From contig OZ251487.1 in NCBI GenBank assembly GCA_965242685.1, forward strand, positions 93,591 to 157,590: 64,000 bases of DNA. Reading direction: 5' to 3'. A model generated the notes under the pieces. It was not told where the DNA came from. It saw nothing but the letters and a program-made list of their open reading frames with translations, and did no database searches. Below are positions 3,940-27,509 of the stretch, in pieces; the stretch's first letter is position 1; each line of letters opens with the position of its first letter. The translations under genes were made by a program, and so were the position numbers. This DNA is from Gammaproteobacteria bacterium. Its GTDB lineage: Bacteria > Pseudomonadota > Gammaproteobacteria > UBA4575.

Positions 3940-5352
3940 TTAAGGGGCTACCGGAGCATCTCTGTGATTTTCACATGGTTCTTTTTGTTTTGCGTGGTGA
4001 CTGGTTTGGTGCGGGCGGTTTCTTCTCTCATGGGAAGGCGGTATCGCCATGGATTCACGATACTTGGCAATGGTACGCCGTGCGACACAGATACCTTTTT
4101 GTTCAAGCAGCATGGCGATCTTATTGTCGCTTAAGGGTTTGAGGTGGTTTTCTTCCTTGATCAAGCCGCCGATTATGGCCTTGACCGCCGTGGCGGAGCG
4201 CACGCCTCCGTCATGCGTATTGACGTGGCTAGAAAAGAAGTATTTGAACTCGAAGGTACCTCGCGGACAGTCCATATATTTATTGGTGGTTGCCCTGGAA
4301 ATAGTGGATTCGTGCATGTCCAGTTCTTCGGCGACATCTCTTAAAACCAGGGGGCGCATCGCTGCCTCGCCATATTCAAGAAAGTTTCTTTGGTGCCTGA
4401 CGATGGACGTTGCAACTTTCAGCAGGGTCTCATTACGATTTTGTAGGCTTTTTATGAACCAGCGTGCCTCCTGTAGTTGATGACGCACGTAATCGCGTTC
4501 ACTGTCCTTGTCAGAGTTTTTGAGTAACCCGTAATAGACGTCATTTATGCGTAGCCTGGGTGTGTTTTTACCATTCAGTGTTACTCTCCATGTGTCCTTA
4601 TGTTTGTGTACGTAGACGTCCGGAATAATGTATTCGGGTTTTTGCACGTTGACCAAGTCGCCGGGTTTGGGGTACAACGATTGAATCAGTATGACCGCGC
4701 CTTCAATTTCCGTACTGGAAAATCCGGTGGACTTCATCAGTTTAAGATAGTTTTTGCTACCGACAACGTCCAGATGCCCGGCCACGATCAGGCGCGCCGC
4801 GGAAAGAAAGGGTGTATCTTCGGGCAGTTGCTGAAGTTGAATCTCCAAGCATTCCCGCAGGCAGCGTGCCCCGCAGCCAACCGGATCGAAGTGCTGTATG
4901 AATTTGAGGACGGCGGCAATCTCGTTCAACTCAAGCGCCATGGTGTGGTTCGCGTTCAGATTTTGCCGGATGTCTTCAAGTGGTTCCTGCAAATAACCCG
5001 ATTCGTCCAGGGCGTTGATCAGGACCGTTGCCACTACGTAGTCGCGCTCGGATAATGAACTCAATTCCAACTGCCGCAACAAGTGTTGTTCCAAAGAGTC
5101 CGGTTTGGCGCTGTCCTGTTTTTCCAGCCAACCTAAGCGATCCTCGTTTTGACTCCTCTGTGACGACGGGGGCGGATAATCCGCTTCGTGGTCTTCATAG
5201 GCCTCCAGCATGGGATTGGATTCAAAGGCCTCCCGAATTTCGGTCTTGAGTTCCAGGGACGATAGCTGTAGCAGGCGAATCGCCAGGCGCAACTGCCTCG
5301 TCATGGTCAATTGCTGACTTAAACGGGCTTGTAATGCGGGCTTTAACAGCAT
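3940..5352 (-). CDS. rpoN: RNA polymerase sigma-54 factor
   Basis: 470 aa. N-terminus LSQQLTMTRQLRLAIRLLQLSSLELKTEIREAFESNP and a C-terminal RpoN box (ARRTIAKYRE). Confidence 0.95.
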   Translation of the reverse strand: MLLKPALQARLSQQLTMTRQLRLAIRLLQLSSLELKTEIREAFESNPMLEAYEDHEADYPPPSSQRSQNEDRLGWLEKQDSAKPDSLEQHLLRQLELSSLSERDYVVATVLINALDESGYLQEPLEDIRQNLNANHTMALELNEIAAVLKFIQHFDPVGCGARCLRECLEIQLQQLPEDTPFLSAARLIVAGHLDVVGSKNYLKLMKSTGFSSTEIEGAVILIQSLYPKPGDLVNVQKPEYIIPDVYVHKHKDTWRVTLNGKNTPRLRINDVYYGLLKNSDKDSERDYVRHQLQEARWFIKSLQNRNETLLKVATSIVRHQRNFLEYGEAAMRPLVLRDVAEELDMHESTISRATTNKYMDCPRGTFEFKYFFSSHVNTHDGGVRSATAVKAIIGGLIKEENHLKPLSDNKIAMLLEQKGICVARRTIAKYRESMAIPPSHERRNRPHQTSHHAKQKEPCENHRDAPVAP

Positions 5353-5362
5353 ATACGTATTA

Positions 5363-5378
5363 TGGCACGAAATTTGCT
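5363..5378 (+). promoter_or_regulatory. sigma-54-type -24/-12 element TGGCACG-N4-TTGCT
   Basis: Exact GG(-24)/GC(-12) consensus with correct spacing. Located 11-26 bp from the rpoN start codon, on the opposite strand. Confidence 0.4.
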
Positions 5379-5515
5379 GGAACCGAAAGGGCTGTACGGT
5401 ACAAGTAGCCCTACAAATAGCCCCCTACAAATAACCTAGGTCGTGGATCGATCCCGTTGATGGCGCACCACTACCGCATCGGCGGTGGAAAACTACCGGG
5501 TGATTTTCGTCGGGT

Positions 5516-6259
5516 TCAGTTTTCAGCCCCCCGATGGATAGAAAAACTGTCACCCAGATAGACGTTGCGCACCTTTTGGTTGCTCAAGATATTGGCGGGC
5601 GGGCCTTTTGCGAGCACGTGCCCTTCGTTGAGGATGTATGCGCGATTACATATTTCCAGCGTTTCACGAACGTTGTGGTCGGTGATCAATAACCCGATAT
5701 CCCGTTCGCGCAGGCGATTGAATATGCCCTGAATATCCTTTACCGAGATCGGATCCACGCCCGCGAACGGTTCGTCCAGTAGAATAAACTTTGGCTGCAT
5801 GGCGAGTGCTCGGGCGATTTCGGTGCGCCGCCTTTCTCCGCCGGATAGGACGGCGCCTTTGTGATTGCGAAGGTGCTCTATCTGTAAGTCGGCGAGCAGG
5901 CTGTTGCAATGCAATTTGCGTTGCGGTCTTTTCAGGTCGGTCCTGGCTTCCAGGCTAACCAATATGTTTTGTTCGACGGTAAGGCCACGAAAGACGGAGG
6001 CCTCTTGCGGGAGATACCCTATGCCGCGTTTTGCCCGCACGTGCATCGGCATATGCGTAATATCCGTGCCGTCCAGCGTTATTTTTCCTTCATCACAGCG
6101 AAGCAGTCCCAAAATCATGTAAAAACACGTCGTCTTTCCCGCGCCGTTGGGCCCCAACAAGCCGGTAATTTCACCGGAGTTTATGTTCAGGCTAACGTCG
6201 TTTACCACCAGACGGGTTTTGTATTTTTTACATAGATTTTCTGCGTCTATCGTATTCAT
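5516..6259 (-). CDS. lptB: LPS export ABC transporter ATPase
   Basis: 247 aa. Walker A GPNGAGKTT and ABC signature LSGGERRR. Position upstream of rpoN is conserved. Confidence 0.9.
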   Translation of the reverse strand: MNTIDAENLCKKYKTRLVVNDVSLNINSGEITGLLGPNGAGKTTCFYMILGLLRCDEGKITLDGTDITHMPMHVRAKRGIGYLPQEASVFRGLTVEQNILVSLEARTDLKRPQRKLHCNSLLADLQIEHLRNHKGAVLSGGERRRTEIARALAMQPKFILLDEPFAGVDPISVKDIQGIFNRLRERDIGLLITDHNVRETLEICNRAYILNEGHVLAKGPPANILSNQKVRNVYLGDSFSIHRGAEN

Positions 6260-6287
6260 GCACAGCTTCCGCCGGGTGCGTTGTGCG

Positions 6288-6803
6288 TCAGTTCTCGCCT
6301 TCTTCCGAGGTTTTCGGGAAAATGGTGATGTTTACGCGATCCCTTCCGCCGAAACTTTCGGCGTTGATGGTTTCCGTATCCGTGTAAAAGATGATGCGGT
6401 CGCTTGACAGCGTGTTATCGGCCTCGGTCAGCTTGGCGTTATTCGTCAGCACAATTTTGTTGACATCAATTTCATAAACCATGTCTTCGGCCTCTGCATA
6501 GACGGTTTCCCCATCCTCTTTGGTTTGTCTAAATGTAGCGGGAGTGCCTTCCGAAGTGATCTTTTTCACCTTCTGGTCGACGACCTGGACGATCACTTCT
6601 TCACCGGTGAGAAGCGTGTTGCCCTGCGTGATTTCCACGTCCCCCACGTATACGCTGATTCCGGTGGCGTCATTTATTTCCGCGGAGTCCGCCTTGATGC
6701 TGATCGGCTCTTCCGAGTCAAGCTGTGCGGCGACCGGATTGCCGTATGACATGGCAAATACGAACAATAAAAGCAGGTATTTATGGCGCATAGTACCCTT
6801 CAA
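6288..6803 (-). CDS. lptA: LPS transport periplasmic protein LptA (OstA-N fold)
   Basis: 171 aa with a signal peptide. Synteny lptC-lptA-lptB. Confidence 0.75.
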   Translation of the reverse strand: MKGTMRHKYLLLLFVFAMSYGNPVAAQLDSEEPISIKADSAEINDATGISVYVGDVEITQGNTLLTGEEVIVQVVDQKVKKITSEGTPATFRQTKEDGETVYAEAEDMVYEIDVNKIVLTNNAKLTEADNTLSSDRIIFYTDTETINAESFGGRDRVNITIFPKTSEEGEN

Positions 6804-7275
6804 CGTTGCCGTGTAAATGGATGACCCGTGTGTTCAAGCTCAATGTCATGTTGTCCGCCGTGACTTCAAACCAATACCGATGCGGGTCTTCTGCAACCGC
6901 CGCTTGATTGATTCTTACGTTGCCGACCAAAGTGAGCCTGTCATCATCGTTATGGGTTTGCCCCCGCAGGGCCGTCGCCGATATTTTACCGCCATTATCG
7001 GGGTGAATGGTAATATTGGGAAGTTCGAATTCAGTGCGCCGTTGTTCGGGGTACAACCAGTATGCCGGTGCCGACAGTATATATTGCGGGGTACCTTTTG
7101 CAGAGTTGACGATTACTTCGACGTCTTTGAAGATCGTCGAGGGAGTAGCGAAGGCTTCGGGCCTCGTCGGGGTCGTGATATCCGAATAATCGACGTGCTG
7201 CCGGCTCAGAAGCCACAGCGTCATGATGGCGCCTGTGGTGATTAAACAGAATATCCAGATCAGTCTGAGTAACAT
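6781..7275 (-). CDS. lptC: LPS export protein LptC (single N-terminal TM helix)
   Basis: The ORF-track start at 7353 overlaps kdsC. Start moved to the Met of MLLRLIWIFCLITTGAIMTLWLL (ATG at 7273-7275). Call rests on synteny and size. Confidence 0.55.
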   Translation of the reverse strand: MLLRLIWIFCLITTGAIMTLWLLSRQHVDYSDITTPTRPEAFATPSTIFKDVEVIVNSAKGTPQYILSAPAYWLYPEQRRTEFELPNITIHPDNGGKISATALRGQTHNDDDRLTLVGNVRINQAAVAEDPHRYWFEVTADNMTLSLNTRVIHLHGNVEGYYAP

Positions 7276-7289
7276 ATTTTGTGGCGGCT

Positions 7290-7823
7290 TTATCGTAAAT
7301 GGTACGCTACGGCCTTGTCCAGCAGGCCTTGTGCATCCAGCAGAAGGTCGCATACTTCTCTCACCGCGCCCTGTCCGCCTTTTGTCGAAGTCTCCCAGTG
7401 CGCATACCGTTTAACGGCGGCGTGTGCATTGGCGACGGCGATGGCCAGACCACAACGCGACATGATTTGCAGGTCGATGATATCATCTCCCGTGAATGCC
7501 GCCTGGCGTTCATCCAGGTTCAGCTTGGACAGCAGTTCCCGGAAGGTACTGAATTTATCTCTGCACCCTTGGTATACATGCCTTACCTGGAGGTTTCGCA
7601 TCCGGTGCTCAAGCGCCTCGGAAGTGCGCCCCGTTATGACCCCCACCTCAATGCCGTAATGCAACAACAGGCGAATGCCGTGACCGTCTTGGGTGTTGAA
7701 TACCTTTAGCTCGGCGCCTTGCGCGTCCATATATAAACTACCGTCCGTAAGAACGCCGTCCACGTCAAACATGGCCAGGCGTATCGCTTTGGCGCGCTCG
7801 GATATATCTGCTGGAATGTTCAT
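7290..7823 (-). CDS. kdsC: 3-deoxy-D-manno-octulosonate 8-phosphate phosphatase (HAD family)
   Basis: 177 aa with the HAD motif FDVDGVLTDG. Position is upstream of lptC. Confidence 0.8.
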   Translation of the reverse strand: MNIPADISERAKAIRLAMFDVDGVLTDGSLYMDAQGAELKVFNTQDGHGIRLLLHYGIEVGVITGRTSEALEHRMRNLQVRHVYQGCRDKFSTFRELLSKLNLDERQAAFTGDDIIDLQIMSRCGLAIAVANAHAAVKRYAHWETSTKGGQGAVREVCDLLLDAQGLLDKAVAYHLR

Positions 7824-7846
7824 GTGAATGCGTGACGTAGAGTTGA

Positions 7847-8800
7847 TTATACGGTTTGCCGATAAATGAAAAATAGGTAGGCAAAGTACGCTACAAAAAA
7901 TAAAGCCCCGAGGCCACGGGAGATACTTTTCGTTCGTGAAAAGGCCAGCGCGAACAGAAATAATGCCAGCGTTGCCGTGATCATAATGGGGAGGTCGCGT
8001 GTATAGACTTGTGCGGGGATCAGGTATGCCGCGATCACCCCCGCCGTACCGGTGACCCCGAGGGTGTTGAAGATATTTGAACCGATCACGTTTCCCAAGG
8101 CCAGCTCACCGTGTTTCTTCATGGCACTTGCAACGCACGTGGCCAGTTCCGGCAGGCTGGTGCCCAAGGCAACGATCGTCAAACCGATGATCAGGTCCTC
8201 GACGCCCAGATAGTTTGCCATCGAAACCGCCGACCATACCACCAGCTTGGAACTGAGCAATAAAACACCCAGACTGAACGACAAGCCCAACAACAGGACG
8301 GCAAGGCCTTTGTGCGCAGAATCGTCTGGTGCATGTTGTTCTCGTCCGCGCCCTTTCAATTCAAAGTGCGTCAGCAAGTACAGTGTAAATCCCAAGGCCA
8401 GTATCAGCATAACGCCGTCCGCCCGCTGCAAATTCCGGTCCAATATCAACAGGATGAATAATGTCGTCGCCGTGATCAGTAACAGAAAGTCCCTGTATAA
8501 AATATTTTTGCTTACATAGAGTGGCGTAATGCACAAGGTGGTACCCAGGATAAGCAAAATATTGGTGATGTTTGACCCCAGGGCGTTACCTATGGCCAGT
8601 CCCGGGTTCCCCTGCCAGGCGGACAATCCGGAAACCAGCAGCTCCGGGGCCGATGTGCCAAACCCGAGTATAACGAATCCGACCACGATCTTTGAAAGAC
8701 GCAAGTGCCGCCCCAGATGCAGGGCATGATCGGTAAACCTGTCGGCACTCCAAATCAAGAGCAAAAGCCCCGCGACAAAGGCAGAGGAAAATAAATACAT
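7847..8800 (-). CDS. yrbG: Na+/Ca2+ exchanger (CaCA) family inner-membrane protein, YrbG-like
   Basis: Two alpha-repeats (GNALGSNITNILLILG and GNVIGSNIFNTLGVTG). Start moved to the internal Met MYLFSSAFVAGLLLLIWSADRF (ATG at 8798-8800), which aligns with the YrbG N-terminus. The longer ORF-track start would overlap the subtilase gene. Confidence 0.65.
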   Translation of the reverse strand: MYLFSSAFVAGLLLLIWSADRFTDHALHLGRHLRLSKIVVGFVILGFGTSAPELLVSGLSAWQGNPGLAIGNALGSNITNILLILGTTLCITPLYVSKNILYRDFLLLITATTLFILLILDRNLQRADGVMLILALGFTLYLLTHFELKGRGREQHAPDDSAHKGLAVLLLGLSFSLGVLLLSSKLVVWSAVSMANYLGVEDLIIGLTIVALGTSLPELATCVASAMKKHGELALGNVIGSNIFNTLGVTGTAGVIAAYLIPAQVYTRDLPIMITATLALFLFALAFSRTKSISRGLGALFFVAYFAYLFFIYRQTV

Positions 8801-8994
8801 AAGTGAAATGCTTGGTTTATGCTTTGCTTGGTGTTCTACAGCCAATAGAATACACTTTAATACACTTTCCCCCGCAAACGTAAAGAAAAAAGCCAAATGC
8901 GGGCCACCTGCCAAATGCGGGTCACCTGCTAAATACAATGTTATGTGATCGATTCGGGGTAGTATTATCTCCGGTGATGTATAGAGGTACTTCA

Positions 8995-11235
8995 ATGAAA
9001 ACTCTGGCTATGGGAATGGTGGTGTTCACCGCCACAATATTGTTCAGTTGTGGCGGCGGGGGCGGCGGCGGGGGCGACGGGCCAAACCCTTGTACCGGCA
9101 TCAGGGTCTTCGACGGCTGCCTCTCGCGGCAGGAGTTTGCGGGACGCCAAGCCCCCATCGCCCGTGCGCGCCTTGCAGGCTCCGAGTTTCAGGCGCAATG
9201 GGGCCTGGAGACGATCAACGCACACCGGGCACATGCGGCCCTGGAAGCGAAATATGGCAGGCGGGTAAGGCCTGGGACAGGGGTTACCGTCGGCTTCCTG
9301 GATGATGGTATTGATCGTAATCACCCTGAATTCAGCGGCGTAGCGATCACCGAAACGATCATACAATCGGGAGGCAGTCGCTCACATGGTACTTCGGTTG
9401 CCAGCGTTATTGCCGCACAATCCAACGGCCGGGGCTTTGTCGGTGTCGCACCGGGGGCCGCCATCGAGATGGGGGCGATCAGCTTCGGGATTGCCCCCAC
9501 GTATTATACGCCGATTTCACTGACAAACCTTGCCGCCGCCGATGCAGGCTTTGAAAGAAACTTAAAGACTATGTTTGCTCGTGACGTTGATATTTTGAAT
9601 CTCAGCATTGGGTACTCGGGAATCATAGAGAATTATAGTGAGGGAGACCTTCGCACGTATTTTCCAAAAACGATTGCCGCCCAAGCACAGGCCGGTGCCG
9701 GAGAAAAACGCATCCTGGTCTGGGCTGCCGGTAATCATAATAATGCACTTTGCACGTCGGGCACACCTAATTGCAGCAGCGGCGGGTATATCACTGCAAG
9801 CTCGCCCTCTATAACCGCCGGGTTGGCCGCAAGAATTAGCGAATTGGCTTCGCACTCCATCGCCGTCGTAGCCTTAAATCAAGCCGGCACGATTGCCGGT
9901 TTCTCCAACCGTTGCGGGATTGCACAGAATATCTGCATTGCGGCCCCTGGCGTTGATATTGTGGCTGCCGAGGCCGGAAGTACCGGGTCTAGAACAGTAA
10001 ATGGCACGTCTTTTTCTGCCCCGATGGTAGCGGGCGGCCTAGCCTTGATGAAGCACTTTTTCCGTGGCCAACTCTCAAACACGGAACTGGTTACCCGGCT
10101 TTACGCAACCGCCAACAAAACCGGTATATACAGTAACCGAAGCATCTACGGGCAAGGGCTGATGGATCTCGGCGCCGCCGTCTCTCCCGTGGGCGGTACC
10201 TCGATCACCACGGGCACTCGAGTCGGGGACGCCGGCCACTTCACCCAAATTACCCACTTAACAACGGGGAGCGCCTTCGGCGACGGCCTGTCACGCGCCT
10301 TGGCCGACCGCGAAATTGTGGCGTTTGACTCGTTGGGAAGCCCGTTCTGGTTTGACCTCCCCGCCTTTACCCAAAATCGCACCCCTTCACTGATGAAGCG
10401 GCTCGATGACCTGATGACCCGTAATGAAGACCCGCAACCATGGGCTACACACGAGATACCGCCGGCAGCCGGGATCTATGGCGATCCCCGCAATCGGGGC
10501 ACATACAGGATCAGTCTTTACGAACGTCCGGTCGCGGCCGAAAGCAGCGCATTCAACCTTGCCGAGCAGGTTGTAGCATTTACCTCCAAGGTGCCAAGCG
10601 GCTTTGAAACTATGGTATTCACCACCGCCGGCCTCACTGGCAACAACAACCCCAAGACGGGCGCCATAGCGGCTTGGAGACCCTCGAACGTGCCGTTCGG
10701 AATTCGCCTCGGTTGGCTTGGAGAACGAGAGGCAGTACTGGATTCCATGGCTGACGGGGCATTCGGTCGGTTATCGGGCGACAGCTTCGTGACCGGCCTT
10801 GAAATGAATACCGAATTCAAGGGCTGGCGGCTGGCCGTCGACGCCGAGGTCGGCCTGGTCACATCGGATACATCAGGGGGCGTCATCGCCGACCTGTCGG
10901 ACATGGTGACCAGCGCGTTTTCACTGCGCGCCCATCGGCACTTGACGAGCAGGGACAGGCTCACGTTCTCGCTATCGCAACCGCTGCGGATAGAACGCGG
11001 CTCTGCCGAGCTTGTGTTGCCGGTCGGTCGCACCAAAGACGGCAAAGTACTGCATGAACAGGTCTCTGCACGCCTGACGCCATCCAGCAGACAGATCGAT
11101 CTATCCGTGCGTTGGCAACGGATGAAACTATTCAACGGCAGACTTCGCGCCGAGATCACCGCCTCGCGCAATCCGGGGCACATGGACAAGGGCACCGAGT
11201 TCAGCCTGCTGGCGGGTTGGGAAGCTGCCTTCTAA
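8995..11235 (+). CDS. S8 (subtilisin-like) serine protease lipoprotein with C-terminal autotransporter beta-barrel (NalP-like)
   Basis: Lipobox LFSC followed by a Gly8 linker. Catalytic motifs DDGID, HGTSVAS, GTSFSAPMVAG and AAGNHN. The C-terminal ~300 aa are beta-strand-rich and end in an aromatic residue (...LLAGWEAAF). Start taken at the ATG at 8995 (MKTLAMGMVVF). Confidence 0.8.
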   Translation: MKTLAMGMVVFTATILFSCGGGGGGGGDGPNPCTGIRVFDGCLSRQEFAGRQAPIARARLAGSEFQAQWGLETINAHRAHAALEAKYGRRVRPGTGVTVGFLDDGIDRNHPEFSGVAITETIIQSGGSRSHGTSVASVIAAQSNGRGFVGVAPGAAIEMGAISFGIAPTYYTPISLTNLAAADAGFERNLKTMFARDVDILNLSIGYSGIIENYSEGDLRTYFPKTIAAQAQAGAGEKRILVWAAGNHNNALCTSGTPNCSSGGYITASSPSITAGLAARISELASHSIAVVALNQAGTIAGFSNRCGIAQNICIAAPGVDIVAAEAGSTGSRTVNGTSFSAPMVAGGLALMKHFFRGQLSNTELVTRLYATANKTGIYSNRSIYGQGLMDLGAAVSPVGGTSITTGTRVGDAGHFTQITHLTTGSAFGDGLSRALADREIVAFDSLGSPFWFDLPAFTQNRTPSLMKRLDDLMTRNEDPQPWATHEIPPAAGIYGDPRNRGTYRISLYERPVAAESSAFNLAEQVVAFTSKVPSGFETMVFTTAGLTGNNNPKTGAIAAWRPSNVPFGIRLGWLGEREAVLDSMADGAFGRLSGDSFVTGLEMNTEFKGWRLAVDAEVGLVTSDTSGGVIADLSDMVTSAFSLRAHRHLTSRDRLTFSLSQPLRIERGSAELVLPVGRTKDGKVLHEQVSARLTPSSRQIDLSVRWQRMKLFNGRLRAEITASRNPGHMDKGTEFSLLAGWEAAF

Positions 11236-11449
11236 GATCATTCCGATATCCCTTAAGTAAGACACCGAAGATACAAAATGCCGATCAAACCCATATTCCT
11301 TGTTGGCATTTTTATGCTATTTCGTCTACCTGAAAGCAGATCCTCTAGTCCATTCTGGCATTTCAATGCTATTTCGTTTACCATGAAAAAGTGACGGTAC
11401 ACGTACACGACAAAAAACAGGCATAGAGGGGAAATAGGCAGAGGGAACA

Positions 11450-11845
11450 ATGGGCATTACAGAATTGATAGATAAATATGGCGAGGCGGGCGTAGTGTTT
11501 GGCTTTGTGCTGACTTGGATTATTTTCAGTTTCCAAATTAGAGGTATGAAAGGCCGAATTGATGGTATAGAAACCAACATCAATACCCGAATTGATGGTA
11601 TAGAAACCAATATCAATACCCGAATTGATGGTATGGAAACCAATATCAATACAAAGATGGAAGCCATCAACAAAAGCATTGAGAAACACGACACAGAGCA
11701 ACGGGAATTACGTGGTTTAGTGGTGGGCGTAATCCAAAGTATAGGCGACATCAAACAAAGCATAGGCGGGCTTGAAAAAATGATGGCAAGCCAACAACCC
11801 CAGACCGACAGCACACCGGCCGCCGCCACAGCACAGGGCAAATAA
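11450..11845 (+). CDS. small membrane-anchored coiled-coil protein with three 11-aa (33-bp) tandem repeats RIDGIETNINT
   Basis: 131 aa with an N-terminal TM helix (VVFGFVLTWIIFSF). The hendecad repeats are encoded at 11555-11653. Strand is chosen on plausibility; the antisense ORF 11326..11841 looks like a repeat artefact. Confidence 0.4.
   Translation: MGITELIDKYGEAGVVFGFVLTWIIFSFQIRGMKGRIDGIETNINTRIDGIETNINTRIDGMETNINTKMEAINKSIEKHDTEQRELRGLVVGVIQSIGDIKQSIGGLEKMMASQQPQTDSTPAAATAQGK
11555..11653 (+). repeat. 3 x 33-bp tandem repeat (cgaattgatggtatagaaaccaaYatcaataccc)
   Basis: Direct inspection; in-frame within the small CDS. Confidence 0.8.
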
Positions 11846-12101
11846 GTTCCGTTTCTCCCTTCTAATCCGTCCGGATAAATCAGAGCAATACTGAAAACCT
11901 TCGCCGCGGACCGGCCTCGCCCGAGCAGAATCGCGGATTGGTTTTTAGGCGTTCAATATCTGGCAAATTTCGGAGACAAATTTACCCTTTTAGAAATATA
12001 TCCTTCCCGCGAAACAGGGTTCTACCACCCGCAACGGCGGTTGATTTCCAGATCAGGGTAGAACGCGGGTCTGGTTTTTAGGCGTTCAATAGCTAGTGAT
12101 T
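11846..12101. repeat. module-flanking intergenic repeat block (family copy A)
   Basis: Contains tgatttccagatcagggtagaacgcgggtctggtttttaggcgttcaat units and the ggagacaaatttacccttttagaaatatatccttcccgcgaaacagggttctaccacccgcaacgg segment. Both recur at 16138-16497 and 19649-20031. Confidence 0.7.
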
Positions 12102-15100
12102 TCACCACCTGATCACGGCCTGTACGCCGATGCCGTGTTCGGTATCCTCGTCATCGTATTCGAGGCGTTCGCCTTCCAGTTTTAAGGTCAAGGCTTCGGT
12201 AAACTTGTACTCGCTCCCCAGTCGGTAGTGACGCCCTTCGTCCCGCACCCGCAGCCCCAGGTACGGCGTCAGCAGCCCCCGCCTGTGATACAACCCGTAC
12301 CCCAATTCGGTCTCCAACTGCAACGCGGTGTCGGCGGCCTCGTCCTCGTCCTTCAACGCCAGTCCCCGCTCCCACAGTGCGCCGATGCCGCCGCCGGTGG
12401 TGCCCCAACTCGGGATGACGCTAAATCGCAGCCCCCGCCCGTTGGCCGCCGGCAACCATTCCAAAGCCCCGCCAAGCCCCCATTCGTCCAAGTCCCCGCT
12501 ATGCGTCACCAGGTAGCGCCCGTGCGTGCGAAGGCGCAGCCCGCCGTTGCTATAACCAACATCCCCGCCGATCTCGACGCCACTGCCGGTCTCGCCGTCG
12601 CCGCCGTCATAGCGTACCCCCAGCTCCAGGCTCGAGGTCAGGATCGCGCCCGTCTCCAGCACCTGACGACGGCTGCCCTCGGCGGCCAGCCGCAGTCGGT
12701 GGGTGTCGATGGTTATGCCGTCTATACGGTCGCCGTTGTCGTCGATGCGCCACCGCGTGGTCTGTCCCTCGCCCCGAATGGCGATCTTCAGATCATCGCG
12801 TTCATAGACCCGCATACTGCCCCCCGCCGACAAGGTCTTGAGGGTGCTGTCGCTGCGTTGTTTCTCATCGAGATCCTCGTCGTCGATGGTGATCTCGCCC
12901 TCGCCGTAGCCCACCGTCGCCCACATCCGGCTGCCGTCTTCGCCGCTCCAGCCAAGGTACGGATGAATGCTCACCATCTCGCTCTCGTGATCGCCCTTGA
13001 TCGTCTCGCCTTCGCTACTATCTTTATAGTCGATGTCGCTCTCAAACCAGGATACGCTCACGCCGGCGGTCTTGTTTGTGCCCCATTCGGTATCGATCCC
13101 CAAGTGCCACGAGAAGGCATCGCCGTCCCAATCCAGCCAGCCGGTGTCTAACGCCAGATCGCGCCAGTCGCCCGCCCCCCACAAGGTCAGGTTGTTGCCG
13201 AAGGTATCGGCGCCGTTCAACGGCAGCGCAAAGTTTTGTCCGCTCAACGCCTGGCGCCATTTGAAGGTGCCGTCTTCCAATGATTGGGCGTTGCCTTGGA
13301 TTACATTCCCGAACGAGGAGGTCGGCGCCCGCGAACCGCCCCCCGCTCCTTCCAGTCGTTCGCGGATCGCCCGACCCACGCTGTCGGTCAACGCCCGCGC
13401 CAGCTCCGGTACGATCGATTCGTTGATGCGCCGCAGACGCGCCCGTTCCTTGTCCCGCGAGTTCTCGACGGTGATCGCAAACGTCATCATCGCCGTGCCG
13501 CCCACCACTTCCCAGGTGTAGTCGGTCGCCACTTGTTCTTCCGTCGGCGTGCCGCTGATGGTGCGCGTGCCCGCATTCAAACTCAGCCCCACCGGCAAGG
13601 CCGGGCTTAGGGTGTAGTCGACATCGCCGTCCACCAACTCCGGCAGGATCAACGCCGTGATCGGGGTGTTGACGGTATACACTTGATCGGGTATATCGAC
13701 ATAGCCCACCCCAAAGGCTGAAAACACACTCACGGTCGCGCATATCAAGTCGCTCCCGCCCGGATTGGTGCGCAAGGTCGTACCGCTCACGGCCTCCCAT
13801 TCGCCGCGCCCTTCGTCGTAGTGCAACAGCAACAGGGGACGCCCGGTCGCCGCCGTCTCCAGCTCGGCGCTATACGGCAGACAGATCTCTAGCCCGCCAC
13901 TCGGCACGGGGGCGACATCGATGTCGACCACGGTGCCATCGCCCAAGGTGTAGGTGCTGCCGGTCAACGGCACATTCGATGACACCCGACTCAGGGTGAT
14001 CGCCAAATCCTGGCCCAAGGCGGCCGGCGGCGCCACTTCCACCTCTTCGTCCACGCCCTCGGATACCGTCACGGTGACCGCCTGGCCGTTGATCTCGTAG
14101 TTGGTGGTGCCCGCTCTGTGCATGGCGATGCGCCGGTCGGCGCTGCCGCCTTGTACGGTGATGACCACGGCATCCGCCTGCGTGTCTTCGTAGCCGCTGC
14201 CGGTGCCGCTTACGGTGTGACCGATGGTCACGCCCCCCTTGGCGTAGTCGTCGTTGTCGGTCGCCACCGTCGCCGTCACCGTCACCGCGCCGTTCCAGTT
14301 GCCCGTCCCGAACGTGACGCTGCTTACATCGGGGGTGACGGCGGCATCGCCGCTCGTCAGGGTCAGCGTGACATTGGCCGCCGGCTCGGCGTCCAGCACC
14401 ACCGTATAGGTGCCGCTGCCCCCTTCGGCGATGGTCAGTTCGGTCGGCGTCACGGTCACGCCCTTGGTGTCGTCATCGACGGTGCGCACCGCCACGTCTC
14501 GTTGACTCAGCGCGGTGTAGACGCTGTCGCTGCCGGTCGGACTCGCCAACCGCACCGCATAGTCTTGATCGCCATCGTCCACAAAGTCGTCGACGCCGGT
14601 CAGCGTCACCGTCTGCGTACTGTTCCAGTTACTGGCCGTAAACGTCAGACTGGCCGGACTCACCGTCCCCTCGCTGGTGTCGGTGCTGCTCAACGCGATC
14701 ACCACGTTGGCGGTCGGCTCGCTGTCCAGCTCGACATCGAAGGTCGCGGTGCGGCTTGCGCCCGTCGCCTCGGTCACCGTCTCGCGCGGCGTACCCGCGC
14801 CCAAGTCGCTCAGCGTAATGCCGGCCGTGTCATCGTCGGTGGTGGTGACCCCCACGTCAACGTTGGCCAGACCGTTGTAGTTGGCGTCCGCGGTGCTCGC
14901 CGGATCAAGGGTGATGTCGTAGTTCTGATCGCCATCGTCAATGCTATCGTTCGCCCCGGTCACCGTCACCGTCTGATCGCTGTTCCAGTTAGAGGGCGTG
15001 AACGTCATACTGCTCGGACTGACCGTACCTTCGCCAGTGTCGGTGCTGCTGACCGCCACCGTTACGTTGGCCGTCGGCTGGGTGTTGAGTTTGACGGTGA

Positions 15101-15722
15101 ACGTCGAGGTGACCCCCGCCTCGGTCGCCTGGCCGGTGACCGCGCCGACGCCGAGGGTAGGCGACTCGTCGTCCAGGATCGTCAGCGTGGCGGTCGTGAC
15201 GGCGGTATGACCTTTTTCCCAATAAAAAGATGTATCACCTGCATCGTCACCAGGAAACTCCGCCGACACCGTCACCGTCCGGGTGCCGTCCACGTTTCCG
15301 TTGTCGGGAATCATGAGCGTCACCACCCCGTTCTCGGGCCGCGTAAGAGTGATTGTACCGGCGTTAGGTCTGTTATACCTCAGCCGCACATTGGTGCTCA
15401 GCGAGGCGCCGCCGGCGTTGGTGGGAGTCGATACGACAATATCAAAATATGCAAGGGCATTTAGGTGCGATGCTTTCGGATTGTATTGGCAATTGTGAAT
15501 CGTCCCGGTGCAAAGGATGTTAACGGGGACGGTCGCCGCCTGGCCCTCGGTGACGGTAAGCGAACTGGCGCGTTCCGCGCCCAACTCTATCCTGAAACTA
15601 TGGTGCTGGCCGGAGCCGGCATGCGCCCCCGCCGTACCCGCCGTCAGCAGTAGCGGTGCGGCCACAGAAACGCCGGCCAAAAGTCGGCGTACAAGGCGAT
15701 TGCGGAAAAGGCCAAGCACCAT
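12102..15722 (-). CDS. giant surface protein: signal peptide, tandem ~100-aa beta-sandwich (Calx-beta/cadherin-like) repeats, C-terminal autotransporter-type beta-barrel
   Basis: 1206 aa. Signal peptide LLAGVSVAAPLLLTAGTAGAHA. Repeated TANVTV..SSTDT.EGTVSP.S.TFT.SNWN..QTVTVTG.DD..DDGDQ.Y units. C-terminus ...GIGVQAVIRW. Paralogous to 16498..19164 and 20032..22353. Confidence 0.8.
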   Translation of the reverse strand: MVLGLFRNRLVRRLLAGVSVAAPLLLTAGTAGAHAGSGQHHSFRIELGAERASSLTVTEGQAATVPVNILCTGTIHNCQYNPKASHLNALAYFDIVVSTPTNAGGASLSTNVRLRYNRPNAGTITLTRPENGVVTLMIPDNGNVDGTRTVTVSAEFPGDDAGDTSFYWEKGHTAVTTATLTILDDESPTLGVGAVTGQATEAGVTSTFTVKLNTQPTANVTVAVSSTDTGEGTVSPSSMTFTPSNWNSDQTVTVTGANDSIDDGDQNYDITLDPASTADANYNGLANVDVGVTTTDDDTAGITLSDLGAGTPRETVTEATGASRTATFDVELDSEPTANVVIALSSTDTSEGTVSPASLTFTASNWNSTQTVTLTGVDDFVDDGDQDYAVRLASPTGSDSVYTALSQRDVAVRTVDDDTKGVTVTPTELTIAEGGSGTYTVVLDAEPAANVTLTLTSGDAAVTPDVSSVTFGTGNWNGAVTVTATVATDNDDYAKGGVTIGHTVSGTGSGYEDTQADAVVITVQGGSADRRIAMHRAGTTNYEINGQAVTVTVSEGVDEEVEVAPPAALGQDLAITLSRVSSNVPLTGSTYTLGDGTVVDIDVAPVPSGGLEICLPYSAELETAATGRPLLLLHYDEGRGEWEAVSGTTLRTNPGGSDLICATVSVFSAFGVGYVDIPDQVYTVNTPITALILPELVDGDVDYTLSPALPVGLSLNAGTRTISGTPTEEQVATDYTWEVVGGTAMMTFAITVENSRDKERARLRRINESIVPELARALTDSVGRAIRERLEGAGGGSRAPTSSFGNVIQGNAQSLEDGTFKWRQALSGQNFALPLNGADTFGNNLTLWGAGDWRDLALDTGWLDWDGDAFSWHLGIDTEWGTNKTAGVSVSWFESDIDYKDSSEGETIKGDHESEMVSIHPYLGWSGEDGSRMWATVGYGEGEITIDDEDLDEKQRSDSTLKTLSAGGSMRVYERDDLKIAIRGEGQTTRWRIDDNGDRIDGITIDTHRLRLAAEGSRRQVLETGAILTSSLELGVRYDGGDGETGSGVEIGGDVGYSNGGLRLRTHGRYLVTHSGDLDEWGLGGALEWLPAANGRGLRFSVIPSWGTTGGGIGALWERGLALKDEDEAADTALQLETELGYGLYHRRGLLTPYLGLRVRDEGRHYRLGSEYKFTEALTLKLEGERLEYDDEDTEHGIGVQAVIRW

Positions 15723-15741
15723 TGTACCTATGGTAAATCGC

Positions 15742-15755
15742 GGGGGGGGGGGGGG
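15742..15755. repeat. homopolymeric G14 tract (C14 on the coding strand), 19 nt upstream of the giant-protein start
   Basis: Counted directly. Conserved flanks aaatcgc-Gn-atattg are shared with the tracts at 19230 and 22419. Confidence 0.9.
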
Positions 15756-15780
15756 ATATTGGCATGATCATCCTAACTTT

Positions 15781-16137
15781 TCAGAAAAACAGGAGTTTGC
15801 CCACTATTAGCAGGGTAAGGCCCAAGTTCAACCCGATTGCCCATTGAAGCCAGGTCTGACCGATTTGGAGTTTGTCAATATCTGCCTTAAGCTCTTGTTT
15901 CAGTGCTTTATTATCTGCCTTAAGCTCTTGTCTCAGTGCTTTATTATCCGCCTTAAGCTCTTGTCTCAGTGCTTTATTATCCGCCTTAAGCTCTTGTCTC
16001 AGTGCTTCAAGATCTGTCTTGGTGGCTACTTCCGCGTCGGGGTGTTTGAACGTATCCACAATCACCCGCGCCTGCGCCTCCGGCATGTCGGCGGCGGTCA
16101 ATTTCCTGATGGCCTCGGCGGTGTCTATTGCATACAT
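15781..16137 (-). CDS. DUF1640-like tail-anchored coiled-coil protein (paralog A; 4 copies of the 33-bp repeat)
   Basis: 118 aa. Conserved N-domain MYAIDTAEAIRKLTAADMPEAQARVIVDTFKHPDAEVATKTD, then LRQELKADNKA hendecad repeats and a C-terminal TM helix (WAIGLNLGLTLLIVGKLLFF). Family assignment is from memory. Confidence 0.55.
   Translation of the reverse strand: MYAIDTAEAIRKLTAADMPEAQARVIVDTFKHPDAEVATKTDLEALRQELKADNKALRQELKADNKALRQELKADNKALKQELKADIDKLQIGQTWLQWAIGLNLGLTLLIVGKLLFF
15883..16014. repeat. 4 x 33-bp tandem repeat (gccttaagctcttgtYtcagtgctttattatcY)
   Basis: Direct inspection; encodes KALRQELKADN on the minus strand. Confidence 0.85.
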
Positions 16138-16497
16138 GGCTTTATCCTAAACGCCCACATCATAGCGAAGTTCAAGCGTCATTGGAATAAGCCACTATAT
16201 CCTAGATTATTCCCAAAGATAAATAGAGTGCCTAGTTGATCTCGACAGGGCGGTTTCTAGGCTTTCAATATCTGGTGATTTTCGATTTTCGGCGGTTAAA
16301 AATACCGCCTACAAGGGAGATAAAATCACCCTTTTAGGAATATATCCTTCCCGGAAATAGGGTTCTACCACCCGCAACGGCTGGTGGTTTTTTGATCAGA
16401 GTAGAATTGTAGATTGGTTATCTAGGCGTGCTATATACTGTTGATTCCAGATCAGAAGGCCGTAGATCGGTTTTTAGGCGTTCGATGGCGGGTGATT
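16138..16497. repeat. module-flanking intergenic repeat block (family copy B), including a hairpin + T6 terminator-like element
   Basis: accacc-N10-ggtggt followed by tttttt, and ccagatcag...gatcggtttttagg units. Homologous to blocks A and C. Confidence 0.65.
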
Positions 16498-19164: not shown

Positions 19165-19229
19165 TAGTAATTTGCGGTGGCCGCCGAACCTCCTACGGTC
19201 TGCGCGGGATGTGGTAATTACAAATCGCG

Positions 19230-19244
19230 GGGGGGGGGGGGGGG
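19230..19244. repeat. homopolymeric G15 tract, 65 nt upstream of the paralog-2 start codon
   Basis: Counted directly; same conserved flanks as tract 1. Confidence 0.9.
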
Positions 19245-19333
19245 CAATATGTCGTTTCATCGGAGGCTGCTCCACGTGAGTTTGTCCTGTAATTCCCGCG
19301 TACAATAATACGTATAGTTATATCGGCGTTCAA

Positions 19334-19648
19334 TCAAAAAAATACGAGTTTGAGCACGATTAGCAGAGTAAAGCTTAAATTCGCCCCGATTGCCCATTTG
19401 ATCCATTTTAACTCTGTTCTAAACTCTGCTCTAAGCTCTCCAATATCCGCCTTAAACTCTTGTCTCAGTGCTTTATTATCTGCCTTAAGCTCTTGTTTCA
19501 GCCCGTTGATACTTGTCTCAAGATCTGTCTTGGTGGCTACTTCCGCGTCGGGGTGTTTGAACGTATCCACAATCACGCGCGCCTGCGCCTCCGGCATGTC
19601 GGCGGCGGTCAATTTCCTGATGGCCTCGGCGGTGTCTATTGCATACAT
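19334..19648 (-). CDS. DUF1640-like tail-anchored coiled-coil protein (paralog B; about 2 repeat copies)
   Basis: 104 aa; same N-domain and C-terminal TM helix as paralog A. 33-bp repeats at 19449-19514. Confidence 0.55.
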   Translation of the reverse strand: MYAIDTAEAIRKLTAADMPEAQARVIVDTFKHPDAEVATKTDLETSINGLKQELKADNKALRQEFKADIGELRAEFRTELKWIKWAIGANLSFTLLIVLKLVFF

Positions 19649-20031
19649 AACTTTATCCTAAACGCCCAACATTCTAGCGAAGTTCGGGCGTCATTGGAAT
19701 AAGCCACTATATCCTAGCTATTCCCAAAGATAAATAGAGTGTCTAGTTGATCTCGACAGGTCAGTTTTTAGGCTTTCAATGGCTGTTGATTTCCAGATTA
19801 GAGTAAAACCGCGGATCGGTTTTTAGGCGTTTAATATCTGGTAATTTTCGGAGACAAAATCCCCCTTTTAGAAATATATCCTTCCCGCGAAACAGGGTTC
19901 TACCACCCGCAACGGCTGGTGATTTCCAGATCAGGGTAGAACGCGGGTCTGGTTTTTAGGCGTTCGATGGCTGCTAATTTCAGATCAGAAGGCCGTAGAT
20001 CGGTTATCTAGGCGTGCTATATCTGTTGATT
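19649..20031. repeat. module-flanking intergenic repeat block (family copy C)
   Basis: Two tgatttccagatYagRgtaRaaccgcggRtcKgtttttaggcgttYaat units plus the conserved ggagacaaaatcccccttttagaaatat... segment. Confidence 0.7.
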
Positions 20032-22353: not shown

Positions 22354-22418
22354 TAGTAATTTGCGGTGGCCGCCGAACCTCCTACGGTCTGCGCGGGATG
22401 TGGTAATTACAAAATCGC

Positions 22419-22435
22419 GGGGGGGGGGGGGGGGG
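22419..22435. repeat. homopolymeric G17 tract, 65 nt upstream of the paralog-3 start codon
   Basis: Counted directly; same flanks (aaaatcgc-G17-caatatgtcg). Confidence 0.9.
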
Positions 22436-22527
22436 CAATATGTCGTTTCATCGGCGGCTGCTCCACGTGAGTTTGTCCTGTAATTCTCGCATACAATAAT
22501 ACACTAGTTATAATATCAGCGGTTCAA

Positions 22528-22797
22528 TCAAAAAAATACGAGTTTGAGCACGATTAGCAGAGTAAAGCTTAAATTCGCCCCGATTGCCCATTTGATCCAT
22601 TTTAACTCTGTTCTAAACTCTGCTCTAAGCTCTCCAATATCCGCCTTAAACTCTTGTCTCAGCCCTTCAATATCTGTCTTGGTGGCTACTTCCGCGTCGG
22701 GATGTTTGATCGTATCCACGATTACGCGCGCCTGCGCCTCCGGCATGTCGGCGGCGGTTAGCTTCCTGATGGTGTCGGCGGTGTCTATTGCATACAT
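22528..22797 (-). CDS. DUF1640-like tail-anchored coiled-coil protein (paralog C; about 1 repeat copy)
   Basis: 89 aa, MYAIDTADTIRKL...; C-terminal TM helix. Confidence 0.5.
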   Translation of the reverse strand: MYAIDTADTIRKLTAADMPEAQARVIVDTIKHPDAEVATKTDIEGLRQEFKADIGELRAEFRTELKWIKWAIGANLSFTLLIVLKLVFF

Positions 22798-22798
22798 G

Positions 22799-23200
22799 TT
22801 AGAAAAACAGGAGTTTGCCCACTATTAGCAGGGTAAGGCCCAAGTTCAACCCGATTGCCCATTGAAGCCAGGTCTGACCGATTTGGAGTTTGTCAATATC
22901 TGCCTTAAGCTCTTGTCTCAGTGCTTTATTATCTGCCTTAAGCTCTTGTCTCAGCGCTTTATTATCCGCCTTAAGCTCTTGTCTCAGCTCTTTGATATCT
23001 GCCTTAAGCTCTTGTCTCAGTGCTTTATTATCCGCCTTAAGCTCTTGTTTCAGTCCGTTGATACTTGTCTCAATATCTGTCTTGGTGGCTACTTCCGCGT
23101 CGGGGTGTTTGAACGTATCCACAATCACCCGCGCCTGCGCCTCCGGCATATCGGCGGCGGTCAATTTCCTGATGGCTTCGGCGGTGTCTATTGCATACAT
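22799..23200 (-). CDS. DUF1640-like tail-anchored coiled-coil protein (paralog D; about 5 repeat copies)
   Basis: 133 aa. 33-bp repeats at 22902-23066 encode five ELKAD units. Confidence 0.55.
   Translation of the reverse strand: MYAIDTAEAIRKLTAADMPEAQARVIVDTFKHPDAEVATKTDIETSINGLKQELKADNKALRQELKADIKELRQELKADNKALRQELKADNKALRQELKADIDKLQIGQTWLQWAIGLNLGLTLLIVGKLLFF
22902..23066. repeat. about 5 x 33-bp tandem repeat
   Basis: Direct inspection. Confidence 0.85.
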
Positions 23201-23524
23201 GACTTTACCCTAAACTCCCTCATTGTAGCGAAGTTCAAGCGTCATTGGAATAAGTCGAGGTGGCCGCCGGCGATAAAACACGTAATCTGCTAATTTCCAA
23301 CACGGCATTTCCATTTATTTTGCCTGTCAATATCATATAGGACGGGGTTTGTGGAGTTAAAGATTCACGTACAGGCGAAGGTTATATCGCAGGCAACGTC
23401 TTGAGTAAAAATGGTACAATTTGCTTGCACCCGTTCTTGTTTGGAAAATATAGGTACGTATTATTCGTTTAAGCATTTCGTTCGCGTGCGATGTCTTGAA
23501 ACTTTTTGGCAACGAGGGCCAGTC

Positions 23525-24172: not shown

Positions 24173-24198
24173 TCGCGGAAAGAATGAGCGGTGGGTAG

Positions 24199-25554
<1,356 letters not shown>

Positions 25555-25575
25555 GGTTCGGCGGAGCGGGCGCCA

Positions 25576-26400: not shown

Positions 26401-26404
26401 AGCC

Positions 26405-27481: not shown

Positions 27482-27509
27482 CCTCCAACCGCTAGGCCTT
27501 GTCACCTTC

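What the first reader, a model, noticed from the sequence alone, without database searches (positions are those of the whole stretch)
8995..11235. NalP-like lipoprotein subtilase autotransporter located beside the autotransporter-type giant proteins
Lipobox LFSC plus a Gly8 linker, a complete S8 catalytic triad (DDGID / HGTSVAS / GTSFSAPMVAG) and a C-terminal beta-barrel ending ...WEAAF. This lipidated autotransporter architecture is that of Neisseria NalP, which proteolytically releases or processes other surface autotransporters and lipoproteins. Its position at the head of an island of beta-barrel-anchored giant proteins suggests a dedicated maturation or release protease for them. The encoded Gly8 comes from a ggcggcggggg x2 microrepeat, not a pure homopolymer.
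Basis: partly seen in the sequence, partly recalled or inferred. Interest (0 to 1): 0.55.

Follow-up and report, generated by a model that had tools for sequence, protein, structure and literature searches.

The report
Lipoprotein subtilase fused to atypical outer-membrane barrel
This gene encodes a lipid-anchored subtilisin-type protease fused to an outer-membrane beta-barrel; it resembles Neisseria NalP in layout, but it belongs to a large uncharacterised family with a different, apparently 14-stranded barrel, and nothing links it to the neighbouring autotransporter-like genes.

Summary
Window 8995-11235 (+) encodes a 746-aa protein with a signal peptide and lipobox (LFSC), a Gly8 tether, an intact S8 catalytic set (D103/H131/N247/S339) and a C-terminal transmembrane beta-barrel ending in Phe.

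The NalP interpretation holds only for the layout.
- **Against it:** the barrel matches neither Pfam PF03797 nor the NalP translocator sequence. It shows no profile similarity to the neighbours' autotransporter barrels. The model has 14 long strands, and its best barrel matches are 14- and 16-stranded porins. There is no beta-helix stalk.

The barrel profile finds more than 2,400 clusters. All ten sampled carry an S8 domain just before the barrel.

The "dedicated protease for the island" idea is not supported. The closest relative with context keeps the same flanking genes but lacks the 12.3-kb island. The island genes lie on the opposite strand. No other family member examined sits beside an autotransporter. 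The recurrent neighbour elsewhere, though not here, is an I78 inhibitor lipoprotein.

Verdict: a new variant of a known kind. Which side of the membrane the protease faces is unresolved.

The parts
8995..9051 (+). Signal peptide with lipobox (aa 1-19, L-F-S-C; Cys19 is the predicted lipidated residue)
   Evidence: Read directly from the sequence. A lipobox followed by a Gly run is present in 77 of the 120 best homologues.
9052..9075 (+). Gly8 tether, encoded by a 12-nt unit (GGCGGCGGGGGC) repeated twice
   Evidence: Gly-run length ranges from 2 to 11 in homologues.
9076..9273 (+). N-terminal extension of the protease (aa 28-93): a short hairpin closed by Cys33/Cys42, then helices. There is no I9-type propeptide.
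   Evidence: AF2 secondary structure. Cys positions. Pfam gives no hit other than S8.
9274..10158 (+). Peptidase_S8 catalytic domain (aa 94-388). Catalytic residues: D103 (nt 9301-9303), H131 (9385-9387), oxyanion N247 (9733-9735), S339 (10009-10011). Short-range Cys pairs: 253/260 and 307/314.
10183..10428 (+). Conserved alpha/beta connector domain of about 80 aa (aa 397-478), ending in a 10-residue helix at 466-475. It contains the invariant motifs AFGDG and FD..G.PFW.
   Evidence: pLDDT about 80-90. Conservation. No Pfam or PDB sequence match.
10429..10494 (+). Poorly conserved linker of variable length (aa 479-500), modelled as disordered
   Evidence: pLDDT below 50. Mean conservation 0.36.
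10501..11235 (+). C-terminal transmembrane beta-barrel (aa 503-746; 14 long strands by DSSP) ending ...LLAGWEAAF, plus the stop codon
11241..23520 (-). Context only, not part of the gene. This is a variable 12.3-kb island holding three paralogous autotransporter-like genes (12102-15722, 16498-19305, 20032-22353) and small coiled-coil/TM genes. All three large genes are on the minus strand.
   Evidence: Absent from the collinear relative L013. PF03797 hits for two of the three. Paralogy shown.

Best explanation
The gene encodes an outer-membrane-anchored S8 serine protease held by two anchors.

**Shown from sequence and model.**
- A Sec/lipoprotein signal peptide, with Cys19 as the acylation site and a flexible Gly8 tether.
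- An intact subtilase domain of the autotransporter-subtilase structural type.
- A conserved connector domain of about 80 aa, followed by a variable linker.
- A C-terminal beta-barrel, apparently 14-stranded, with a terminal-Phe beta-signal.

**Inferred biogenesis.** Lgt/LspA/Lnt lipidate the protein and Lol delivers it to the outer membrane. BAM inserts the barrel. The protease domain is then presented at the outer membrane, most likely on the cell surface by an autotransporter-like route. In this route the helix (466-475) and linker (479-500) would pass through the barrel lumen. The N-terminal lipid would keep the enzyme cell-bound, as in NalP and SphB1. There it would cleave surface or environmental proteins.

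**Classification.** It is a functional analogue of NalP and SphB1, but not a member of the classical PF03797 type Va family. It belongs to a large, uncharacterised S8+barrel family in which the barrel is always coupled to an S8 domain. In several lineages, though not in this window, the gene is paired with an I78 inhibitor lipoprotein.

**Relation to the island.** The gene is a stand-alone, conserved-synteny gene, not a component of the adjacent island.
For: - **Gene and motifs:**. S8 domain E 1e-32. Catalytic residues invariant.
- **Model quality:** full-length AF2 pLDDT 87, pTM 0.83. C-terminal model pLDDT 82.
- **Lipobox and poly-Gly:** conserved in 77 of 120 homologues.
- **Cysteines:** all six non-lipid Cys form closely spaced pairs (33/42, 253/260, 307/314). 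From my own knowledge of the autotransporter literature, such pairs are what translocation-competent passengers tolerate.
- **Family size and coupling:** more than 1464 full-length homologues. 2422 clusters match the barrel profile. All ten sampled have an S8 domain immediately upstream of the barrel.
- **I78 partner:** an I78 gene lies just downstream in L010 (two pairs), L018 and five Nitrospirales loci.
- **Stand-alone status:**
Against: - I could not inspect the coordinates or PAE of the models. It is therefore not shown on which side of the barrel the protease sits, or whether residues 466-500 thread the lumen.
- The helix is only 10 residues long, and the linker is variable and modelled as disordered. 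This differs from the conserved pore helix of type Va proteins.
- No known type V subclass has a 14-strand barrel, so the export step is an analogy rather than a demonstrated mechanism.
- A periplasmic I78 lipoprotein partner would fit a periplasm-facing enzyme equally well.
- The strand count rests on DSSP of a predicted model. One hairpin (about 670-693) is less clearly amphipathic.
Confidence: 0.55

Rival explanations
1. Periplasm-facing, outer-membrane-tethered protease. The S8 domain stays in the periplasm. It is held against the inner face of the outer membrane by the N-terminal lipid and by a flexible linker to the barrel. The barrel serves only as an anchor or channel. Periplasmic I78 lipoprotein inhibitors control activity where they are present.
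For: - By strand parity, beta-1 starts on the periplasmic side.
- The segment before it (479-500) is variable in length and sequence and is modelled as disordered, as expected of a free tether.
- This topology needs no translocation step.
- I78 inhibitors carrying lipoprotein signal peptides are recurrent neighbours.
- The barrel has no sequence relation to any known translocator.
Against: - The protease domain is closest to a secreted autotransporter passenger.
- The exclusively short-range Cys pairs resemble those of translocated passengers.
- A pTM of 0.83 for the whole chain implies a defined S8-barrel arrangement rather than a free tether.
- The most conserved barrel loop, L3 (578-591), lies on the predicted extracellular side. 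That would fit docking of a surface domain.
- A periplasmic inhibitor is also what is expected as protection against a protease in transit.
Confidence: 0.27
2. One reading: a bona fide NalP-type classical (type Va) lipoprotein autotransporter that acts as the dedicated maturation or release protease of the adjacent autotransporter-like proteins.
For: - Same domain order as NalP and SphB1: lipobox, poly-Gly, S8, C-terminal barrel.
- S8 domain of Ssp type.
- Physically adjacent to three PF03797 proteins.
- NalP and SphB1 do process other surface proteins (PMC9289746).
Against: - PF03797 is not detected in the query or in 47 relatives.
- No match to the NalP translocator or to the neighbours' barrels.
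- 14 strands rather than 12.
- No beta-helix stalk.
- The island is absent from the collinear relative L013, which keeps the S8 gene.
- Convergent orientation.
- No autotransporter neighbour in seven other gene-called contexts and no island homologues in any fetched locus.
Confidence: 0.08
3. A cis-acting lipoprotein exporter. The 14-strand barrel would be a Slam/T11SS-like or otherwise novel translocon. It would flip its own lipidated N-terminal protease to the surface, making this a new secretion subclass rather than a type V relative.
For: - A 14-strand count, which from my own knowledge is the number predicted for Slam (DUF560) barrels.
- The cargo is a lipoprotein with a poly-Gly tether, like neisserial surface lipoproteins.
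- The barrel family is large and strictly coupled to one cargo type.
Against: - No Pfam hit of any kind for the barrel, DUF560 included, at E<=10.
- The AlphaFold database library was unavailable, so the fold comparison could not be made.
Confidence: 0.1

Closest known systems
NalP (Neisseria meningitidis) and SphB1 (Bordetella pertussis): lipidated subtilisin-like type Va autotransporters
   Same: Lipoprotein signal peptide followed by a Gly-rich tether, an S8A-type protease domain, a C-terminal outer-membrane barrel with a terminal aromatic residue, and short-range Cys loops around the SNxCG...C..AP motif. The roles of NalP and SphB1 are taken from PMC9289746 and PMC9977779.
   Different: - The barrel is not PF03797 and is not sequence-related to the NalP translocator.
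- About 14 strands rather than 12.
- No beta-helix stalk of about 200 aa; only an alpha/beta connector of about 80 aa.
- Total length 746 aa, against about 1080 aa for NalP.
Ssp, the subtilase autotransporter of Serratia marcescens (PDB 8e7f)
   Different: [quoted passage not shown] At the sequence level only residues 63-156 match (E 2.6e-7).
14- and 16-stranded outer-membrane porins and channels (OmpG, Omp33, CymA, Vibrio OmpT, Omp32)
   Different: No sequence similarity. Those proteins are stand-alone channels, with no N-terminal enzyme and no lipid anchor.
Protease-inhibitor gene pairs with lipoprotein inhibitors, such as Tannerella forsythia mirolase and the other KLIKK peptidases with potempins
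   Different: A different inhibitor family and a different secretion route. The pairing is absent at this locus.

Membership tests
Peptidase family S8 (subtilases) | Pfam PF00082 above the gathering score | tested here: met
   114 bits against a cutoff of 21.8, E 1e-32, aa 94-388.
Peptidase family S8 (subtilases) | Asp-His-Ser triad in that order, plus the oxyanion Asn | tested here: met
   D103, H131, N247 and S339 align to subtilisin D32/H64/N155/S221 and are invariant in 45 homologues.
Bacterial lipoprotein | Signal peptide ending in a lipobox with an invariant Cys | tested here: met
   I-L-F-S-C19. A lipobox followed by a Gly run occurs in 77 of 120 homologues. Acylation itself cannot be tested here.
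Outer-membrane beta-barrel protein (BAM substrate) | Closed transmembrane beta-barrel fold | tested here: met
Outer-membrane beta-barrel protein (BAM substrate) | C-terminal beta-signal with a terminal aromatic residue | tested here: met
   ...GWEAAF. 119 of 120 homologues end in F, W or Y.
Classical (type Va) autotransporter | Translocator domain matching Pfam PF03797 | tested here: not met
   No hit at E<=10 for aa 401-746. 0 of 45 family members hit at E<=1. 0 of 2 distant homologues hit. The definition is from PMC9289746.
Classical (type Va) autotransporter | 12-stranded barrel | tested here: not met
   14 strands of at least 7 residues in both models. Best barrel matches are 14- and 16-stranded. 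Hbp and AaaA rank 51st and 60th. The count comes from DSSP of a prediction; I did not see the coordinates.
Classical (type Va) autotransporter | Alpha-helical linker occupying the barrel pore | tested here: inconclusive
   There is only a 10-residue helix (466-475) followed by a 22-residue low-confidence linker. Its position relative to the lumen could not be read without coordinates.
Subtilisin-like autotransporters (NalP, SphB1, Ssp group) | N-terminal S8A protease domain of the autotransporter type | tested here: met
Subtilisin-like autotransporters (NalP, SphB1, Ssp group) | Beta-helix stalk of about 200-250 aa between the protease and the translocator | tested here: not met
   Only about 80 aa of mixed alpha/beta structure (397-478) lie between the S8 domain and the linker. 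The feature is taken from PMC9289746 and PMC9977779.
Subtilisin-like autotransporters (NalP, SphB1, Ssp group) | Proteolytic processing of other surface proteins | not testable with these tools
   This needs a mutant and surface proteomics. Genomic linkage to candidate substrates is not conserved.
Slam / type 11 secretion (DUF560 barrel) | Sequence match to the DUF560/Slam barrel family | tested here: not met
   No Pfam family of any kind matches the C-terminal 346 aa at E<=10.
Slam / type 11 secretion (DUF560 barrel) | Specific fold similarity to Slam barrels | not testable with these tools
   The afdb50 library was unavailable. No Slam entry appeared among the PDB matches.

The most novel reading that the evidence does not exclude
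The S8+barrel family (more than 2,400 clusters at 50% identity, in Nitrospirales, Gamma- and Alphaproteobacteria) is a previously unrecognised class of self-contained outer-membrane display system. A 14-stranded barrel, unrelated in sequence to any type V translocator, would export or present its own lipidated protease. In many lineages a cognate I78 lipoprotein inhibitor would hold the protease in check. That would make it a new type V-like (or cis-acting Slam-like) subclass.
Probability: 0.3. Interest if true: 0.7.

Novelty: new variant of a known kind. Interest (0 to 1): 0.45.

Why it matters
- **An unannotated membrane module.** Public annotation calls these proteins only "S8 family serine peptidase" and misses the barrel entirely. 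Recognising a large family of lipid-anchored, barrel-fused subtilases would add a class of outer-membrane or cell-surface proteases in uncultured marine and environmental bacteria.
- **A test case for type V secretion.** If the protease is surface-exposed, a 14-strand barrel without PF03797 and without a beta-helix would widen the known range of autotransport-like secretion. It would also test which features of type V secretion are really required.
- **A built-in regulatory partner.** The recurrent I78 lipoprotein suggests a regulator that could be tested biochemically.
- **For this window.** The gene should not be annotated as an accessory of the adjacent autotransporter-like island.

Tried and rejected
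1. **Sequence link from the barrel to known translocators.** All negative:
   - Pfam at E<=10 on the C-terminal 346 aa.
   - Pfam on 45 family members and on 2 distant plasmid homologues.
   - phmmer and a profile hmmsearch against all PDB sequences, which include the NalP translocator. The only weak hit, Pvc7 at E 0.017, is judged chance.
   - hhalign against the three neighbouring autotransporter barrels, probability 0.3%. That profile holds only 3 sequences, so its sensitivity is limited.
2. **Foldseek against the PDB.** TM-scores were 0.3-0.4 for every barrel, porins and autotransporters alike. This does not discriminate.
3. **AlphaFold database search.** The library was unavailable.
4. 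**Other passengers fused to this barrel.** Only the best 150 of 2422 hits are listed. All ten sampled are S8 fusions. The distant tail could not be inspected.
5. **An I78 inhibitor in the window.** tblastn and a custom HMM over all ORFs of at least 35 aa found none.
6. **Homologues of the island proteins next to other family members.** None found.
7. **Source genome.** An exact look-up of the window protein's contig failed. The genome scan returned no identical locus. An FtsZ search places the host only as an uncultured gammaproteobacterium.
8. **Promoter and terminator scan.** Uninformative.
9. Treated as a lead only. It aligns only the catalytic-Ser region.
10. **Phase variation through the Gly-coding tract.** Rejected: G runs are at most 5 nt, and slippage of the 12-nt unit would stay in frame.
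Full report
**1. What is there**

Window 8995-11235 (+) is a 746-aa reading frame inside the mechanical ORF 8938-11235. An AGAGG motif lies about 9 nt upstream of the ATG at 8995. The public protein collection holds an identical 746-aa protein (P0001).

- MKTLAMGMVVFTATILFSC, with the lipobox Cys19.
- Eight glycines, encoded by GGCGGCGGGGGC repeated twice at nt 9052-9075.
- DDGID, SHGTSVAS and GTSFSAPMVAG.
- The C-terminus LLAGWEAAF.

Pfam finds one domain only, Peptidase_S8, at aa 94-388 with E 1e-32. In an alignment of 45 homologues, D103, H131, N247 and S339 are invariant. They align to the subtilisin triad and oxyanion Asn.

**2. The family**

A search of the 5.8-billion-protein collection returned more than 1464 homologues.
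- The best 120 cover 87-100% of the query at 36-100% identity; most cover about 95% at 45-60%.
- Their only precomputed Pfam domain is PF00082.
- Where a source names them, the name is just "S8 family serine peptidase", from Nitrospira and Gammaproteobacteria MAGs.

Of the 120 best, 77 have a lipobox followed by 2-11 Gly. Most of the remainder begin inside the conserved mature N-terminus, so they look like truncated gene calls. 119 of 120 end in F, W or Y. A subgroup of about 1200 aa carries an ordinary signal peptide instead.

The family occurs in Nitrospirales, Alphaproteobacteria, Arenicellales and Paracoccaceae MAGs. More distant members (about 26% identity, full length) lie on alphaproteobacterial plasmids. 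FtsZ places the host of the window only as an uncultured gammaproteobacterium.

**3. The C-terminal domain**

It is a real transmembrane barrel, but not a recognisable autotransporter translocator.

At the sequence level, every test was negative:
- No Pfam family matches aa 401-746 even at E<=10.
- None of 45 family members hits PF03797 at E<=1.
- Neither of two distant plasmid homologues hits it.
- Neither the protein nor a 19-sequence C-terminal profile hits any PDB chain other than subtilases; the NalP translocator is not found.
- hhalign against the three neighbouring PF03797-type barrels gives probability 0.3%.

At the structure level:
- AlphaFold2 with the family alignment gives a confident model, pLDDT 87 and pTM 0.83. 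The C-terminal part alone gives pLDDT 82.
- Both models show the same 14 long strands: 503-510, 526-532, 537-543, 554-561, 568-577, 592-608, 611-627, 637-649, 654-668, 670-679, 684-693, 701-712, 715-725 and 735-744. There are also two 4-residue loop strands.
- Thirteen of the 14 strands alternate hydrophobic and polar residues.
- Foldseek does not discriminate; TM-scores are 0.3-0.4 for everything.

I could not inspect coordinates. The count of 14 therefore rests on DSSP, strand parity and amphipathicity. A 12-strand barrel is not what the model shows.

**4. The protease domain**

NCBIfam gives only sub-threshold partial hits: mycosin, then the autotransporter proteases EprS and fusolisin.

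Between the S8 domain and the barrel there is no beta-helix stalk. Instead there is:
- a conserved alpha/beta connector of about 80 aa (397-478; invariant AFGDG and FD..G.PFW motifs);
- a 10-residue helix (466-475);
- a variable linker of about 22 residues, modelled as disordered (479-500).

The six non-lipid cysteines form three short-range pairs: 33/42, 253/260 and 307/314. From my own knowledge of the autotransporter literature, translocated passengers tolerate only such closely spaced pairs. This is suggestive, not decisive.

**5. Genomic context**

*The window.* The upstream genes are lptB, lptA, lptC, kdsC and a Na/Ca antiporter (minus strand). The S8 gene follows on the plus strand. Then comes a block at 11241-23520 holding three paralogous autotransporter-like genes on the minus strand:
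- 1206 aa, about 890 aa and 773 aa. Two of them hit PF03797.
- The last two are 91% identical over 572 aa.
- Each is accompanied by a small coiled-coil/TM gene.

After the block come mlaC, murA and hisG.

*The nearest relative.* The closest relative with usable context (P0003, 77% identity, locus L013) has the same gene order on both sides. blastn shows L013 collinear with window 5049-11241, then jumping directly to 23521-31591. About 150 bp stand in place of the 12.3-kb block. The island is therefore a variable insertion, or a deletion in the relative, next to a conserved S8 gene. The contig of the 88%-identical P0002 ends 85 bp after the S8 stop, at the same junction.

*Other family members.* Seven other gene-called contexts show housekeeping neighbours and no PF03797 protein: L010, L011/L012, L013, L017, L018, L019 and L020. 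tblastn with the island proteins finds nothing in loci L001-L015.

*The recurrent neighbour.* What does recur is a gene of about 100 aa from the peptidase-inhibitor I78 family, with a lipoprotein-type signal peptide, downstream of the S8 gene:
- two tandem S8+I78 pairs in L010;
- one in L018;
- one each in five Nitrospirales loci, within 0-3.5 kb.

None is present in the window, L013, L011, L017, L019 or L020.

**6. Mechanism**

*Shown.* A lipoprotein signal, an intact S8 active site, an outer-membrane barrel with a beta-signal, and strict coupling of this barrel to S8 domains. All ten sampled representatives have an S8 domain just before the barrel, and 2422 clusters match the barrel profile.

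*Inferred.* Lipidation and Lol transport, then BAM insertion, then presentation of the protease at the outer membrane.

I favour surface display by an autotransporter-like route (confidence 0.55). The reasons are the passenger-type S8 fold, the short Cys loops, the high whole-chain pTM, and the strongly conserved loop on the predicted external face.

The main rival is a periplasm-facing tethered protease (0.27). It is favoured by the variable, disordered pre-barrel linker, by the lack of any translocator signature, and by the periplasmic inhibitor partner.

A Slam-like cis-exporter reading (0.10) cannot be tested with the libraries available.

Action in trans on the island proteins remains possible, as NalP acts on unlinked substrates (PMC9289746). 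No evidence here supports it.

**7. Comparison and novelty**

In layout and probable role the protein works like NalP and SphB1, the lipidated subtilisin-like autotransporters that process surface proteins (PMC9289746 and PMC9977779).

It fails three defining features of that family: PF03797, the 12-strand barrel and the beta-helix stalk. A fourth, the pore helix, is inconclusive. I therefore file it as a new variant of a known kind. It represents a large, unannotated S8+barrel family, not a new member of the type Va family.

Interest is moderate (0.45). The gene itself is an ordinary-looking protease. The barrel type, the size of the family and the I78 pairing would interest people who work on type V secretion and the outer membrane. 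The topology question can be tested directly.

Noticed in passing
L010:9548-9829 and 12263-12553; L018:8569-8922; L001:13494-13811; L002:13755-14119; L004:13460-13777; L006:12312-12629; L008:15756-16073: A small I78-family peptidase-inhibitor gene with a lipoprotein-type signal peptide lies just downstream of S8+barrel genes in several unrelated lineages. L010 has two tandem protease-inhibitor pairs. In L002 the gene seems split over two frames. None is present in the window or in its nearest relative L013.
   Followed up: partly
window 11241-23520: A variable 12.3-kb island is absent from the collinear relative L013. It holds three paralogous autotransporter-like genes on the minus strand (12102-15722, 16498-19305, 20032-22353). 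The last two are 91% identical over 572 aa, which suggests a recent duplication. Their passengers contain repeated Ig-like modules of about 100 aa (motif ...EGTVSP.SLTFT.SNWN..QTVTVTG.DD...).
   Followed up: partly
window 15781-16137, 19334-19648, 22799-23200 (all minus strand) and fragment 22573-22797: Each autotransporter-like gene is preceded by a small paralogous gene. It encodes a coiled-coil protein with LKADNKALRQE-type repeats in varying number and a C-terminal hydrophobic helix. The pairing suggests a repeated two-gene module of unknown function.
   Followed up: no
window 11450-11845 (+): A 131-aa ORF between the S8 gene and the island contains a triple RIDG(I/M)ETNINT repeat. It has only weak coiled-coil-like Pfam hits.
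   Followed up: no
window 8892-8927: An 18-nt tandem direct repeat, gccaaatgcggg(c/t)cacct x2, lies in the divergent intergenic region between the Na/Ca antiporter gene and the S8 gene. It is preceded by a 10-nt tandem, atacacttt(a/c), at 8850-8869. These could be regulator binding sites.
   Followed up: no
L016 (P0002 contig, 3832 bp): The contig carrying the 88%-identical orthologue ends 85 bp after the S8 stop codon. That is exactly where the island begins in the window. It is consistent with a repeat-induced assembly break and with the island, or a variant of it, being present in that strain.
   Followed up: no
P0009, P0011, P0014, P0017, P0035, P0100 (one 3.38-Mb contig): A subgroup of the family of about 1200 aa has an ordinary, non-lipoprotein signal peptide, about 450 extra residues and a C-terminus ...FFTGYRATW. 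At least six paralogues occur in one genome.
   Followed up: no
window 44400-61900: A complete dcw cell-division and cell-wall cluster is present, running from mraZ and mraW to ftsZ as judged from ORF sizes. FtsZ is at most 86% identical to any protein from another assembly in the collection, except for one 99% match.
   Followed up: partly
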